This document shows positions 26,306-28,048 of a DNA stretch of 38,751 nucleotides, piece by piece (positions within the stretch are counted from its first letter, which is position 1; every line of letters begins with the position of its first letter). This DNA is from a phage. The stretch lies in the sequence record PZ465525.1; one strand, 5' to 3'. A program made the translations under genes and the position numbers. A model generated the notes under the pieces. The model was given only the letters and a program-made list of their open reading frames with translations. It did not search any database and had not been told where the DNA came from.

Positions 26306-26328
26306 CAATACGACTCACTATAAGGAGG
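26306..26328 (+). promoter_or_regulatory. Phage RNAP class II promoter (phi1.1A-like)
   Basis: CAATACGACTCACTATAAGGAGG: consensus with A at +1. Confidence 0.8.
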
Positions 26329-26345
26329 GCTCCCGATGGTGGTCT

Positions 26346-26368
26346 TAATACGACTCACTATTGGGAGA
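26346..26368 (+). promoter_or_regulatory. Phage RNAP class II promoter (phi1.1B-like)
   Basis: TAATACGACTCACTATTGGGAGA: one mismatch at -1. Confidence 0.85.
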
Positions 26369-26459
26369 CCTTAAGGTTCTACTTTAAGACCCTTAAGACT
26401 CTTACTTTAAGATTTAATTTAAGACCAAATTTAAGACTTAACTCTAAGGAGACTTTAAG
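26369..26459. repeat. AT-rich TTTAAGA/CTTAAG repeat region downstream of the phi1.1A/B promoters; candidate primary replication origin
   Basis: CCTTAAGGTTCTACTTTAAGACCCTTAAGACTCTTACTTTAAGATTTAATTTAAGACCAAATTTAAGACTTAACTCTAAGG; T7 places its primary origin in the equivalent AT-rich region. Confidence 0.5.
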
Positions 26460-26582
26460 ATGCGTAATTTCGAGAAATTCACCAAGCGTTCTTCCCACAA
26501 AGACTTCGCTGAGTTCGCCCAAGAGGGACGCAAGATGAACAAGGTCAAGCGTGACCGTTCTCACAAACGCAACTGGGCATAA
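26460..26582 (+). CDS. 1.1: gp1.1 small basic protein
   Basis: 40 aa, MRNFEKFTKRSSHKDFAEFAQEGRKMNKVKRDRSHKRNWA, similar to T7 gp1.1 (recalled); RBS TAAGGAG; too short for the ORF track. Confidence 0.8.
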   Translation: MRNFEKFTKRSSHKDFAEFAQEGRKMNKVKRDRSHKRNWA

Positions 26583-26592
26583 GGAGGTCTTT

Positions 26593-26832
26593 ATGGCGCT
26601 CGACGTGATGTTCTTTGAGAACCGCCTCAATAAGCTGGCCGCCTACGCTAACAGCATGGGTCTGCGCCTCCGGTGGATGAACGAACCGATGACCCTATCG
26701 CTGCGAGTGGGCATCTTTGAGCGAGGCTTTCAGGAGCCACTTGCAGAGAAGACGTTCGAGTGGGGCGCTAGTAGCCTTGACGTAGAACGCTGGGTCGCCA
26801 AGGTATGCAAGGACTACGCGAGCTGGGACTAA
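26593..26832 (+). CDS. Gene 1.2-position protein (possible functional analogue of the T7 dGTPase inhibitor; sequence-divergent)
   Basis: 79-aa ORF from ATG 26593 after RBS AAGGAGG; occupies the T7 gene 1.2 slot but shows little similarity to T7 gp1.2 as recalled. Confidence 0.6.
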   Translation: MALDVMFFENRLNKLAAYANSMGLRLRWMNEPMTLSLRVGIFERGFQEPLAEKTFEWGASSLDVERWVAKVCKDYASWD

Positions 26833-26852
26833 TACGACTCACTATCGAGAGA
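26830..26852 (+). promoter_or_regulatory. Phage RNAP class II promoter (phi1.3-like)
   Basis: TAATACGACTCACTATCGAGAGA: deviations at -1/+2 (the T7 phi1.3 is also nonconsensus downstream). Confidence 0.75.
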
Positions 26853-26862
26853 GAGAGGAAGA

Positions 26863-26896
26863 ATGCCCAAGGTCGCTCGCTGAGTGGCCTTCATCA
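26863..26896 (+). promoter_or_regulatory. RNase III-type processing hairpin (R1.3-like)
   Basis: ATGCCCAAGGTCGCTCGCTGAGTGGCCTTCATCATT. Confidence 0.7.
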
Positions 26897-26929
26897 TTCT
26901 ACTCACATAATCTGCAAAGGAGAATCGTC

Positions 26930-28048
26930 ATGATGAACATCAAGACCAACCCGTACAAAGCTGTGTCCTTCAACGAGAAAGCCGTTGAGAAGGCGCTCAA
27001 GCGTTCGCACTACCTGATTGCTGACATCAAGTATGATGGTGTGCGCGGGAACACTCTGGTCAAACCGTCTCAAGGTGCTTGCTGGCTCTCTCGGGTATCG
27101 AAACCGATTCCGGCGATTGAGCACCTGAACGATGGCGCTGCCCGTTGGGACAACCTGCTCAAGGATAACCGCTGCATGTTCCCGACTGGCTTTATGCTTG
27201 ATGGCGAGCTGATGGTTGACGGTGTGGACTTCAACACTGGCTCCGGCCTGCTGCGAACCAAGTGGCTAGACTCCAAGAATCAGGAGTTCCACAACGAGTT
27301 CCTGCCGCGCAACGTCAAGAAGTCCGAGAAGATTCCGTTCCGTCTGGACGCTGGCCTGCTCAAGGTCGTCATTTACGCCGTGCTCCCGATTGAAGTAGTG
27401 GAGTCCGGTGCCGACTATCCGGTCAAGAACCTGCTGATGCAGGAACACGTCAAGAACATGCTGCCTCTGCTCCGCGCTCACTTCCCTGAGATTAGCTGGC
27501 AAGCGGCTGAGTCCCATGAGGTGTATGATATGACCGAACTGTCTGCACTGTACGAAATGAAACGCGAGGAGGGTCACGAAGGTCTCATTGTGAAAGACCC
27601 GAGCGACACCTACAAGCGCGGCAAGAAGACTGGCTGGTGGAAGATGAAGCCAGAGAACGAGGCTGATGGTGTCATTCAGGGTTTGGTATGGGGCAACAAG
27701 GGTCTTGCTAACGAAGGCAAGGTGATTGGCTTTGAGGTGCTGCTAGAGTCTGGCCGTGTGGTCAACGCTTGCAATATCTCCAAGGCCCTGATGGACGAGT
27801 TCACGGCTGCCGTCAAGGCTAACACTCCGTGCGCTGGTAGCGGAATCTGTCAATACGCTCAGGACATTGCGATGCCTGAACATCACTGCTCTGGACAGTG
27901 CCAGTACGAGGGCCACGCGATGGCCAACCCGTACCACGGCTGGGCTTGTCAAATCAGCTACATGGAGGAGACCCCTGACGGCTCCCTTCGCCACCCTTCC
28001 TTTGTGATGTTCCGTGGCACCGAAGCGGAACCGACCGAGAAGATGTAA
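26930..28048 (+). CDS. 1.3: gp1.3 ATP-dependent DNA ligase
   Basis: 372 aa; MMNIKTNPYKAVSF...IADIKYDGVRGN (adenylation motif KYDGxR) ...EGLIVKDP...WWKMKPE...DGSLRHPSFVMFRGTE; highly similar to T7 ligase (recalled). Confidence 0.96.
   Translation: MMNIKTNPYKAVSFNEKAVEKALKRSHYLIADIKYDGVRGNTLVKPSQGACWLSRVSKPIPAIEHLNDGAARWDNLLKDNRCMFPTGFMLDGELMVDGVDFNTGSGLLRTKWLDSKNQEFHNEFLPRNVKKSEKIPFRLDAGLLKVVIYAVLPIEVVESGADYPVKNLLMQEHVKNMLPLLRAHFPEISWQAAESHEVYDMTELSALYEMKREEGHEGLIVKDPSDTYKRGKKTGWWKMKPENEADGVIQGLVWGNKGLANEGKVIGFEVLLESGRVVNACNISKALMDEFTAAVKANTPCAGSGICQYAQDIAMPEHHCSGQCQYEGHAMANPYHGWACQISYMEETPDGSLRHPSFVMFRGTEAEPTEKM

What the first reader, a model, noticed from the sequence alone, without database searches (positions are those of the whole stretch)
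26593..26832. Gene 1.2 slot occupied by a protein unlike T7 gp1.2
Between gene 1.1 and the phi1.3 promoter, where T7 encodes the dGTPase inhibitor gp1.2 (also a known trigger or target in host exclusion), this phage has a 79-aa ORF (MALDVMFFENRLNKLAAYANSMGLRLRWMNEP...KDYASWD) that I cannot align convincingly to T7 gp1.2 from memory. It may be a very divergent orthologue or a replacement with a different host target.
Basis: inference. Interest (0 to 1): 0.3.

Follow-up and report, generated by a model that had tools for sequence, protein, structure and literature searches.

The report
Divergent gp1.2 homologue lacking inhibitory plug
The small gene in the T7 "gene 1.2" slot of this Aeromonas-type T7-like phage is a real, very diverged relative of the T7 dGTPase inhibitor: it keeps the fold and genome position but lacks the N-terminal tail T7 uses to block the enzyme, so its exact host target is still open.

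Summary
The 79-aa ORF at 26593-26832 (+) is real. It has a strong Shine-Dalgarno site, is conserved in all six phages of the IME15/Ebrios/PZL-Ah1 clade (ICTV 2025 genus Ebriosvirus), and has dN/dS 0.07-0.27.

It is still a homologue, not an unrelated replacement.
- Its profile matches the Klebsiella-phage slot-1.2 family (hhalign 95.8%, E 7e-9). That family matches the T7/T3 family (88.8%, E 2.5e-6). Both scores exceed all 200 shuffles.
- An AlphaFold model built without T7-type sequences (pLDDT 86.6) has T7 Gp1.2 (7U66_G, 7U65_G) as its best match among 350,542 PDB chains (TM 0.65).
- As in T7, the stop codon is the first triplet of the phi1.3 promoter.

It lacks the near-invariant MGRLYSGNL tail that T7 Gp1.2 inserts into the Dgt active site. 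The gene is also a sharply bounded hypervariable cassette.

Most likely it is a host dNTPase-binding early protein with an altered binding mode or specificity; a different target is not excluded. I rate it a new variant of a known kind, of modest interest.

The parts
26593..26832 (+). Gene-1.2-slot ORF, 79 aa (window type, phrog_32835): a divergent gp1.2-fold protein
   Evidence: ORF. dN/dS 0.07-0.27. phrog_32835 E 1.4e-56 and phrog_6515 'dGTPase inhibitor' E 2.2e-4. hhalign to Klebsiella type 95.8%, E 7e-9. AF2 pLDDT 86.6. Foldseek top PDB hits are 7U66_G and 7U65_G.
26593..26604 (+). Codons 1-4 (MALD): the only residues ahead of helix 1. This short N-terminal stub stands where T7 Gp1.2 has its 7-residue active-site plug and the Klebsiella type has a 13-residue tail.
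   Evidence: Model secondary structure has helix 1 starting at residue 5. The Klebsiella-type model has a disordered tail at 1-13. The global profile alignment puts window M1 opposite T7 N8. T7 contact residues come from PMC9478638.
26605..26655 (+). Predicted helix alpha1 (aa 5-21)
26662..26757 (+). Predicted three-stranded antiparallel sheet (aa 24-31, 36-43, 49-55). This is the most conserved part between the window type, P0120 and the Klebsiella type.
26773..26826 (+). Predicted helix alpha2 (aa 61-78), ending in the D-Y-x-S-W motif. W78 aligns with the invariant W84 of T7-type gp1.2.
26582..26587 (+). Shine-Dalgarno AGGAGG, 5 nt before the ATG. It overlaps the stop codon of gene 1.1.
   Evidence: Read directly from the sequence.
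26460..26582 (+). Gene 1.1 (40 aa)
   Evidence: Pfam PF08200, E 1.8e-15.
26830..26852 (+). phi1.3-type phage promoter. Its first three bases, TAA, are the stop codon of the ORF, as in T7, T3-like, KP32-like and sister phages.
26855..26904 (+). Hairpin with internal loops downstream of phi1.3. It shares the AAGGTCGCTC core with the T7 region downstream of phi1.3; the T3-like phiYeO3-12 record annotates a putative RNase III site R1.3 at the same place.
   Evidence: Fold (z -1.29, so not significant on energy alone). Sequence conservation with T7 and relatives. The phiYeO3-12 R1.3 stem-loop annotation is.
26306..26368 (+). Two tandem T7-type promoters (phi1.1A/B equivalents) that drive genes 1.1 and 1.2
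   Evidence: T7 annotation
26930..28048 (+). DNA ligase (gene 1.3), the downstream boundary of the slot

Best explanation
The ORF is the positional orthologue and a remote homologue of T7 gene 1.2. It is a ~9 kDa early protein with the same alpha-beta-beta-beta-alpha fold, transcribed from the phi1.1A/B promoters, and it ends on the phi1.3 promoter. It belongs to a small subfamily (phrog_32835) whose nearest relatives are the slot-1.2 proteins of Klebsiella Przondoviruses (phrog_6515), not the T7/T3 family (PF10922, phrog_2949). Shown here: the gene is real, the fold is gp1.2-like, homology is supported through an intermediate family, synteny is exact, and the T7 N-terminal plug is absent. Inferred: like T7 Gp1.2, it is a stoichiometric binder of a host protein. 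The most likely partner is the host's Dgt/SAMHD1-family dNTP triphosphohydrolase, which it would engage with helix alpha1 and the adjacent sheet edge at a subunit interface to protect the dGTP/dNTP pool for phage replication. With only about 4 residues ahead of helix 1 and no G-R-L-Y-S-G motif, it cannot copy the T7 mechanism of inserting the N-terminal amine and Arg3 into the active site. Any inhibition must therefore be steric or allosteric, or tuned to a differently shaped (Aeromonas) enzyme. I put about 0.9 on homology with gp1.2 and about 0.45 on the target being a Dgt-family dNTPase.
For: Gene reality: conserved in six phages with dN/dS 0.07-0.27; strong SD. Homology chain: hhalign window type vs Klebsiella type 95.8%, E 7.4e-9; Klebsiella type vs T7/T3 type 88.8%, E 2.5e-6; merged profile vs T7/T3 88.9%, E 2.4e-6. 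Observed scores of 46.9 and 35.7 exceed the maxima of 200 column shuffles, 20.7 and 17.7. A Klebsiella-type HMM finds this ORF as its only hit among 679 six-frame pieces of the window, E 2e-5. PHROG 'dGTPase inhibitor' phrog_6515 scores E 2.2e-4, in register to the C-terminus. Structure: AF2 pLDDT 86.6, pTM 0.76, with H5-21, E24-31, E36-43, E49-55, H61-78. This is the topology reported for Gp1.2. Foldseek ranks 1-2 of 350,542 PDB chains are 7U66_G and 7U65_G, TM 0.65/0.62, rmsd 3.0 A, against TM <=0.45 for the next hits, which are dsRBDs. The intermediate family's model also hits 7U66_G, 7U65_G and 2MDP first, TM 0.72-0.73. Synteny: gene 1.1, this gene, phi1.3, ligase. The ...TGG-NNN-TAA stop overlaps the promoter in T7, phiYeO3-12, KP32, Oda, the sister phage and this clade. 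Arms-race signature: it is the most diverged shared early gene versus the sister phage (37% aa against 59-94% for neighbours). Nucleotide identity to T7-type relatives falls to 23-43% exactly across the gene. The Klebsiella/Raoultella Dgt surface touched by Gp1.2 differs from E. coli at R137, H182, H227, R436 and F437, while the active-site residues are conserved. So variation of gp1.2 type with host Dgt surface is plausible.
Against: The direct comparison with the T7/T3 family is weak (hhalign 2.4% probability, E 0.019; 3 of 200 shuffles as good). Pfam PF10922 and my own T7-type HMM give no hit. The Foldseek E-value is only 0.03, and the fold is small and dsRBD-like. 2MDP was public before the AF2 training cut-off. 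The residues through which T7 Gp1.2 acts (G2 amine, R3, L4, Y5, S6, G7, A10, F12, K13) have no counterparts here, so function cannot be transferred from T7. Even the intermediate Klebsiella family's 'dGTPase inhibitor' label is untested: it has no Pfam domain and its deletion is tolerated. I could not establish whether Aeromonas has an E. coli-type Dgt (one search returned only Enterobacteriaceae).
Confidence: 0.55

Rival explanations
1. Same fold, different target. The gp1.2 scaffold has been retargeted in this lineage to a host protein other than a Dgt-family dNTPase, for example another defence or nucleotide-metabolism factor of Aeromonas. Alternatively, it has been reshaped mainly to escape a defence system that senses canonical gp1.2.
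For: The T7 active-site plug and most of the helix-1 contact residues are missing. The N-terminal 22 residues are hardly conserved even between the window protein and its 38% identical relative P0120, whereas the sheet and helix 2 are. The hosts are mainly Aeromonas. Canonical gp1.2 is a known liability: it is a target for F exclusion (T7 annotation) and an apparent trigger of ApeA, which gives a selective reason to remodel it. The cassette boundaries are sharp.
Against: No positive evidence exists for any other partner. The closest relatives (Klebsiella type) keep a recognisable L-[FY]-x-G...aromatic version of the T7 N-terminal motif on a long flexible tail, so the wider branch is probably still Dgt-directed. 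Clade member Ebrios grows on E. coli C, which has Dgt.
Confidence: 0.3
2. Ordinary orthologue with unchanged function. It inhibits Dgt essentially as T7 Gp1.2 does, and the sequence is simply saturated by divergence.
For: Same slot, same fold, same size, similar acidic pI (5.4 vs 5.1). Positions aligned with the T7 contact residues Y28 (W28 here) and V65 (V64 here) are retained.
Against: Across T7, T3, Berlin and Dickeya-phage members that are only 29-40% identical overall, M1, G2, R3, Y5, S6, G7, N8 and L9 are nearly invariant. The plug is therefore the most constrained part of true Dgt inhibitors, and it is absent here. The model has only 4 residues before helix 1, which is too short to reach into an active site the way T7 residues 2-7 do.
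Confidence: 0.1
3. Unrelated gene that displaced gene 1.2, with a convergent small alpha/beta fold; or a decaying, non-functional remnant.
For: There is no direct sequence match to T7 gp1.2. Nucleotide similarity drops to random across the gene. Truncated or frameshifted copies exist in metagenome data (P0003 61 aa, P0119 41 aa).
Against: The transitive profile links are far above shuffle controls. T7 Gp1.2 is the best structural match in the whole PDB. The invariant penultimate Trp and the stop/promoter overlap are shared. Purifying selection (dN/dS 0.07-0.27) and an intact ORF in all six isolates argue against decay.
Confidence: 0.05

Closest known systems
T7 Gp1.2, inhibitor of E. coli dGTPase (Pfam PF10922 T7-like_gp12; phrog_2949; PDB 2MDP, 7U65-7U67)
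   Same: Same genome slot between gene 1.1 and phi1.3/ligase, with the stop codon lying on the promoter. Similar size (79 vs 85 aa) and acidic pI. Same alpha-beta-beta-beta-alpha fold, and best PDB match at TM 0.65. Conserved core residues include the penultimate Trp.
   Different: No HMM or pairwise sequence match. It lacks the near-invariant MGRLYSGNL N-terminus that enters the Dgt active site, and most helix-1 contact residues. Its hosts are mainly Aeromonas rather than Enterobacteriaceae. Function is untested.
Klebsiella Przondovirus (KP32-like) slot-1.2 protein, annotated 'dGTPase inhibitor' (phrog_6515; no Pfam family)
   Same: This is the closest detectable family: hhalign 95.8%, E 7e-9, HMM E 2e-5, about 30-35% identity over the sheet and helix 2, and a shared D-Y-x-S-W C-terminus. 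Same slot and stop/promoter overlap. Its model also matches T7 Gp1.2 best.
   Different: The Klebsiella type has a 13-residue flexible N-terminal tail with its own invariant motif (F9, G11, Q15, W16, R18, L19, G20). That motif aligns with T7 L4-Y5-S6-G7...F12. The window type has only 4 residues before helix 1 and none of this motif.
P0120 family: slot-1.2 protein of an uncultured sister lineage (contigs DRR848634_1204 and others)
   Same: Same PHROG (phrog_32835, E 3e-12). 37-38% identity. Same slot in a phage about 81% identical in nucleotides across the early region.
   Different: Four residues shorter, with a different N-terminal 20 residues and a basic pI of 8.0 against 5.4.

Membership tests
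PF10922 / phrog_2949 (T7-like gp1.2, dGTPase inhibitor; target for F exclusion) | Sequence match to the family HMM above threshold | tested here: not met
   Pfam gives no hit at E<=10. An HMM built from 36 T7/T3/Berlin/JA10 members does not list the ORF at E<=10 with filters off. phrog_2949 is not among its PHROG hits. Positive controls T7, phiYeO3-12 and JA10 all match.
PF10922 / phrog_2949 (T7-like gp1.2) | N-terminal M-G-R-x-Y-S-G-N-L segment, the active-site plug and monomer-A contacts of Gp1.2 | tested here: not met
   The segment is nearly invariant in the family and its functional role is described in PMC9478638. The window N-terminus is MALDVMFFEN. The global profile alignment starts it at T7 residue 8. 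No plug-like motif occurs anywhere in the six-frame translation.
PF10922 / phrog_2949 (T7-like gp1.2) | Gp1.2 fold: three-stranded antiparallel sheet covered by two helices | tested here: met
   AF2 model at pLDDT 86.6 with H-E-E-E-H topology. Foldseek ranks 1-2 in the PDB are 7U66_G and 7U65_G, TM 0.65/0.62. Caveats: this is a predicted structure, and the Foldseek E-value is 0.03.
PF10922 / phrog_2949 (T7-like gp1.2) | Genomic position: directly after gene 1.1, ending at the phi1.3 promoter upstream of ligase | tested here: met
PF10922 / phrog_2949 (T7-like gp1.2) | Binds and inhibits host dGTP triphosphohydrolase; needed on optA1 hosts; target of F (PifA) exclusion | not testable with these tools
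   This needs biochemistry and genetics. No published data were found for this clade.
gp1.2-fold superfamily in the broad sense (T7 type + Klebsiella type + window type) | Profile-profile homology to at least one established member family, above empirical controls | tested here: met
   Window type vs Klebsiella type 95.8%, E 7e-9. Klebsiella type vs T7 type 88.8%, E 2.5e-6. None of 200 shuffles reaches either score.
phrog_6515 (Klebsiella-phage 'dGTPase inhibitor') | Full-length HMM match including the conserved N-terminal tail motif LFDGSTSQWSRLG | tested here: not met
   Only residues 20-78 match profile positions 28-85, at E 2.2e-4. The tail motif appears as a 14-column gap in the window type.

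The most novel reading that the evidence does not exclude
The gp1.2 fold is a modular early-gene scaffold whose N-terminal 'warhead' is exchanged or lost between phage lineages. On that reading, this plug-less Aeromonas-phage version inhibits a different class of host dNTPase (for example a shorter, non-enterobacterial Dgt/SAMHD1-like hexamer, or a defence dGTPase) by a purely interfacial or allosteric mechanism. Alternatively, it has been retargeted to a non-dNTPase host factor while evading defences that sense canonical gp1.2.
Probability: 0.3. Interest if true: 0.5.

Novelty: new variant of a known kind. Interest (0 to 1): 0.3.

Why it matters
Every public record of this clade labels the gene 'hypothetical protein', and PHROGs lists its family as unknown function. 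Linking it to the Gp1.2 fold gives it a testable hypothesis. More broadly, the analysis shows that slot 1.2 of T7-like phages holds at least three mutually remote subfamilies on one scaffold. The inhibitory N-terminus is the part that differs between them, and the Dgt surface contacted by Gp1.2 differs between host genera. That is the pattern expected of an inhibitor/enzyme arms race. It bears on the question raised by Klemm et al. of how widely phages have evolved dNTPase inhibitors. It is also a caution against transferring the 'dGTPase inhibitor' label by position alone. The finding is incremental, not a new kind of system.

Tried and rejected
1. Direct sequence routes to T7 gp1.2 all came back negative or marginal. 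These were Pfam and NCBIfam, phmmer against PDB sequences, a merged-profile hmmsearch against PDB, and a T7-type HMM against the six-frame window.
2. Deepening the window-type family largely failed. The word-indexed search gave only near-identical copies. The exhaustive HMMER search of 1.84 billion representatives added one true relative (P0120) and one spurious repeat protein (P0121). The viral-contig scan returned only the IME15 contig and the metagenome-contig scan returned nothing. The window-type profile therefore stays shallow (Neff 1.5).
3. I tried to retrieve an Aeromonas Dgt using E. coli Dgt as the query. The scan returned only Enterobacteriaceae, so the presence and type of the putative target in the main host is unresolved. 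Literature searches for Aeromonas dGTPase, and for the report I recalled that dGTPase activity is confined to Enterobacteriaceae, found nothing usable.
4. An alternative upstream GTG start (26551, 93 aa) was rejected. It overlaps gene 1.1, has no SD, and adds no plug-like motif.
5. A dsRNA-binding-domain function was considered because dsRBDs are the next Foldseek hits. It was rejected as the primary reading because their TM-scores are <=0.45 against 0.65 for Gp1.2. The paper also notes that Gp1.2 itself resembles dsRBD/HPF folds only generically.
6. No canonical gp1.2 is encoded elsewhere in the window.

Full report
OBSERVATION. AGGAGG lies 5 nt upstream, overlapping the stop codon of a 40-aa ORF that is a clear gene 1.1 (Pfam PF08200, E 1.8e-15). 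The ORF's TAA is also the first triplet of a perfect T7-type promoter core, TAATACGACTCACTAT. That core occurs 15 times in the window at <=2 mismatches, always on the + strand, against 0.01 expected by chance. DNA ligase follows at 26930-28048. The window is a circularly permuted T7-like genome of the IME15 / Ebrios / PZL-Ah1 / KFSA9 / avDM11 group, with 92-93% nucleotide identity over the early region. The records file this group under Teseptimavirus, and ICTV moved Ebrios and IME15 to a new genus, Ebriosvirus, in 2025. Three of the five isolates were grown on Aeromonas hydrophila, and KFSA9 lysed only A. hydrophila in a broad panel.

IS IT A GENE? Yes. All five relatives carry an intact 79-codon copy at 92-97% aa identity. 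Among the six sequences, 16 variable codons are synonymous only and 10 are non-synonymous. Pairwise dN/dS is 0.07-0.27. Every record calls it 'hypothetical protein'. The IME15 record numbers its neighbours 1.1 and 1.3 but leaves this gene unnumbered.

DOES IT RESEMBLE T7 gp1.2 BY SEQUENCE?
- Pfam gives nothing at E<=10, while T7, phiYeO3-12 and Dickeya phage JA10 gp1.2 all hit PF10922.
- phmmer against PDB sequences does not find 2MDP or 7U65.
- tblastn with T7 gp1.2 finds 538 phage records, but none from this clade.
- An HMM I built from 36 T7/T3/Berlin/JA10-type proteins does not list the ORF even with filters off.
- The exhaustive HMMER search of 1.84 billion representatives found only near-identical copies plus one true relative, P0120 (75 aa, 38% identity, E 1.3e-7).
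- P0120 sits in the same slot (gene 1.1, this gene, ligase) of an uncultured T7-like phage. That phage is a sister of this clade at about 81% nucleotide identity.

THE REMOTE LINK. PHROGs places the ORF in phrog_32835 (unknown function, E 1.4e-56). It also gives a weak, in-register hit to phrog_6515 'dGTPase inhibitor' (E 2.2e-4, residues 20-78 against profile positions 28-85 of 86). phrog_6515 is the slot-1.2 protein of Klebsiella Przondoviruses (KP32-like). That family has no Pfam domain and only a marginal hit to the T7 PHROG, so its label is positional, not experimental.

I built three alignments: window type (A1), T7/T3 type (A2) and Klebsiella type (A3). The hhalign results were:
- A1 vs A3: 95.8% probability, E 7.4e-9.
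- A3 vs A2: 88.8%, E 2.5e-6.
- Merged A1+A3 vs A2: 88.9%, E 2.4e-6.
- A1 vs A2 directly: 2.4%, E 0.019, although the alignment is in register through to the penultimate Trp.

Column-shuffle controls (200 each) calibrate these scores. The observed scores of 46.9 and 35.7 compare with shuffle maxima of 20.7 and 17.7. The direct comparison (16.5) is equalled by 3 of 200 shuffles. A Klebsiella-type HMM picks this ORF as its only hit among all 679 six-frame pieces of the window (E 2e-5). Homology is therefore well supported through an intermediate family, but not directly.

STRUCTURE. I modelled the window protein with AlphaFold2, using an alignment of window-type and Klebsiella-type sequences only, with no T7-type sequence. 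The model has mean pLDDT 86.6 and pTM 0.76, with helix 5-21, strands 24-31, 36-43 and 49-55, and helix 61-78. This is the 'three-stranded antiparallel sheet covered by two helices' reported for Gp1.2 (PMC9478638).

Foldseek against 350,542 PDB chains ranks T7 Gp1.2 first and second (7U66_G and 7U65_G; TM 0.65/0.62, rmsd 3.0 A over 74 columns, probability 1.00). The next hits are generic dsRBDs at TM <=0.45. The Klebsiella-type model (pLDDT 79.6) also returns 7U66_G, 7U65_G and 2MDP as its top three, with TM 0.72-0.73 and rmsd 2.4 A. Three caveats apply. These are predictions, the Foldseek E-values are modest (0.03 and 0.002), and 2MDP was public (2016) before the AF2 training cut-off.

SYNTENY AT NUCLEOTIDE RESOLUTION. 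The gene ends ...TGG-NNN-TAA/TAG in all of T7, T3-like phiYeO3-12, KP32, Oda, the P0120 phage and this clade. In each case the stop codon forms the first bases of that phage's own phi1.3 promoter. The Trp encoded by that TGG is one of only three invariant columns in the T7/T3 alignment. It is also invariant in the merged window-plus-Klebsiella alignment.

WHAT IS MISSING. Klemm et al. (PMC9478638) show how T7 Gp1.2 works.
- The N-terminus inserts into the active site. The free amine of G2 and the R3 side chain grip the (d)GTP phosphates. R3 stacks on the guanine, F391 and H126. The L4 carbonyl holds the catalytic H126.
- Y5, S6, G7 and A10 pack on monomer A.
- F12, K13 and Y28 make cation-pi contacts with R436 and F437 of monomer E.
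- V65 touches H227.

In my alignment of family members that are only 29-40% identical overall, M1, G2, R3, Y5, S6, G7, N8 and L9 are nearly invariant. The plug is therefore the most constrained part of bona fide inhibitors.

The window protein begins MALDVMFFENRLNKL. A forced global profile alignment puts its M1 opposite T7 N8. Its model has only four residues before helix 1. No G-R-[LIVM]-[YF]-[SG]-G-[NS] motif exists in any frame of the window.

The Klebsiella type is different. It has a 13-residue low-confidence tail carrying an invariant motif. In the global alignment this motif lines up as W7-L8-F9-D10-G11 with T7 R3-L4-Y5-S6-G7, and W16 with F12. That branch plausibly keeps a plug, and the window type is the version that lacks one. 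Only two T7 contact positions have like-for-like counterparts in the local alignments: Y28 (W28 here) and V65 (V64 here).

A HYPERVARIABLE CASSETTE. Against the sister phage, neighbouring early proteins are 59-94% identical (RNAP 87%, gp1.1 76%, ligase 71%, gp2.5 90%). This protein is only 37% identical. Against the nearest T7-type Teseptimaviruses (CICC 80001 and Salmonella phage 3A_8767), which carry canonical MGRLYSGNL gp1.2 in this slot, nucleotide identity is 70-85% in the flanks. It falls to 23-43% exactly between 26582 and 26830 and recovers after the promoter. This fits either very fast evolution of the gene or allelic exchange within a conserved frame.

Such volatility is plausible for gene 1.2, which is both a counter-defence and a liability. 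It is the target for F exclusion (T7 annotation) and an apparent trigger of ApeA. The Klebsiella-type gene can be deleted in experimental evolution. On the host side, Klebsiella and Raoultella Dgt keep the active-site residues H126, A130, N133, K232, P233, Y272 and F391. They differ from E. coli at the peripheral Gp1.2 contacts: R137S (R retained in R. planticola), H182W, H227N/S, R436S and F437L. The inhibitor subfamilies may therefore track host Dgt surfaces.

MECHANISM, AND HOW SURE. Four things are shown: the gene is real, the fold is gp1.2-like, homology runs through an intermediate family, and the slot is the same. It is also shown that the T7 N-terminal plug is absent. The rest is inference. 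I infer that it is a stoichiometric binder of a host protein, most likely a Dgt/SAMHD1-family dNTPase, engaged through helix 1 and the sheet edge. Its mode would be interfacial or allosteric, or tuned to a non-enterobacterial enzyme. I put about 0.9 on homology and about 0.45 on a Dgt-family target. Retargeting to another host factor, or remodelling mainly to avoid detection, gets about 0.3. Unchanged T7-like inhibition gets about 0.1. Non-homologous replacement or decay gets about 0.05.

LIMITS. The window-type family is tiny (Neff 1.5), and scans of viral and metagenome contigs added nothing. I could not retrieve an Aeromonas Dgt, so I do not know whether the main host has an E. coli-type enzyme. 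My recollection that classical dGTPase activity is restricted to Enterobacteriaceae, and that Aeromonas has only the shorter 'Dgt-like' homologues, is unverified memory. Literature searches did not confirm it. No complex modelling was possible with the tools at hand.

VERDICT. The 'different target' alternative remains open. This is a new variant of a known kind, of modest interest.

Noticed in passing
window 27824-27920 (ligase aa ~299-331): The window's DNA ligase is 372 aa. It carries a 31-aa Cys/His-rich insertion (CAGSGICQYAQDIAMPEHHCSGQCQYEGHAMA) that is absent from Ebrios, IME15 and the sister phage, which are 340 aa each. T7 has a shorter, unrelated segment in the same loop. It could be a metal-binding insert in a variable loop.
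   Followed up: partly
window 26847-26858: A (GA)n tract immediately after the phi1.3 promoter varies in copy number between near-identical phages: Ebrios 1, KFSA9/IME15/avDM11 3, this window 5, PZL-Ah1 7. This is slippage in the initially transcribed region.
   Followed up: no
window 26370-26450: An AT-rich stretch with repeated TTTAAGAC/CTTAAGAC motifs lies between the phi1.1B-type promoter and gene 1.1. From memory, this is where T7 has its primary replication origin.
   Followed up: no
L064, L071, L074, L087, L088 and other loci (enterobacterial dgt): Klebsiella/Raoultella Dgt keeps the active-site residues contacted by T7 Gp1.2. It differs at the peripheral contacts: R137S (R retained in R. 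planticola), H182W, H227N/S, R436S and F437L. F437L and changes at H227 also occur in Citrobacter, Salmonella, Lelliottia and Enterobacter. This is a possible host-side signature of an arms race with gp1.2.
   Followed up: partly
L020 (E. coli K-12 dgt), residue 193: The Klemm et al. text names 'F193' as the Dgt residue whose carbonyl bonds Gp1.2 Y5. Residue 193 of K-12 Dgt is Val in my translation, while all the other cited residues match by number. This is probably a typo in the paper's text.
   Followed up: no
L015 (avDM11-UST), locus 1-1001: The avDM11-UST record annotates the RNA polymerase gene as several short CDS fragments (1_2 to 1_5). That suggests frameshift errors in the assembly.
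   Followed up: no
P0003 (61 aa) and P0119 (41 aa): Metagenome-derived copies of the gene diverge or stop after about residue 38. They are either frameshifted or truncated alleles, or sequencing errors.
   Followed up: no
L021, L022 and L055: Two genomes titled Enterobacter hormaechei carry a dgt 100% identical to E. coli K-12. A contig titled Chryseobacterium sp. carries an enterobacterial dgt at 86% identity. These are likely mislabelled or contaminated assemblies.
   Followed up: no
L014 (IME15) vs L013, L016 and L001: Phages more than 90% identical in nucleotides are recorded on three very different hosts: Stenotrophomonas maltophilia, Aeromonas hydrophila and E. coli C. KFSA9 is strictly A. 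hydrophila-specific in tests. The published comparison points to tail-fibre differences, and the IME15 host assignment deserves a second look.
   Followed up: partly
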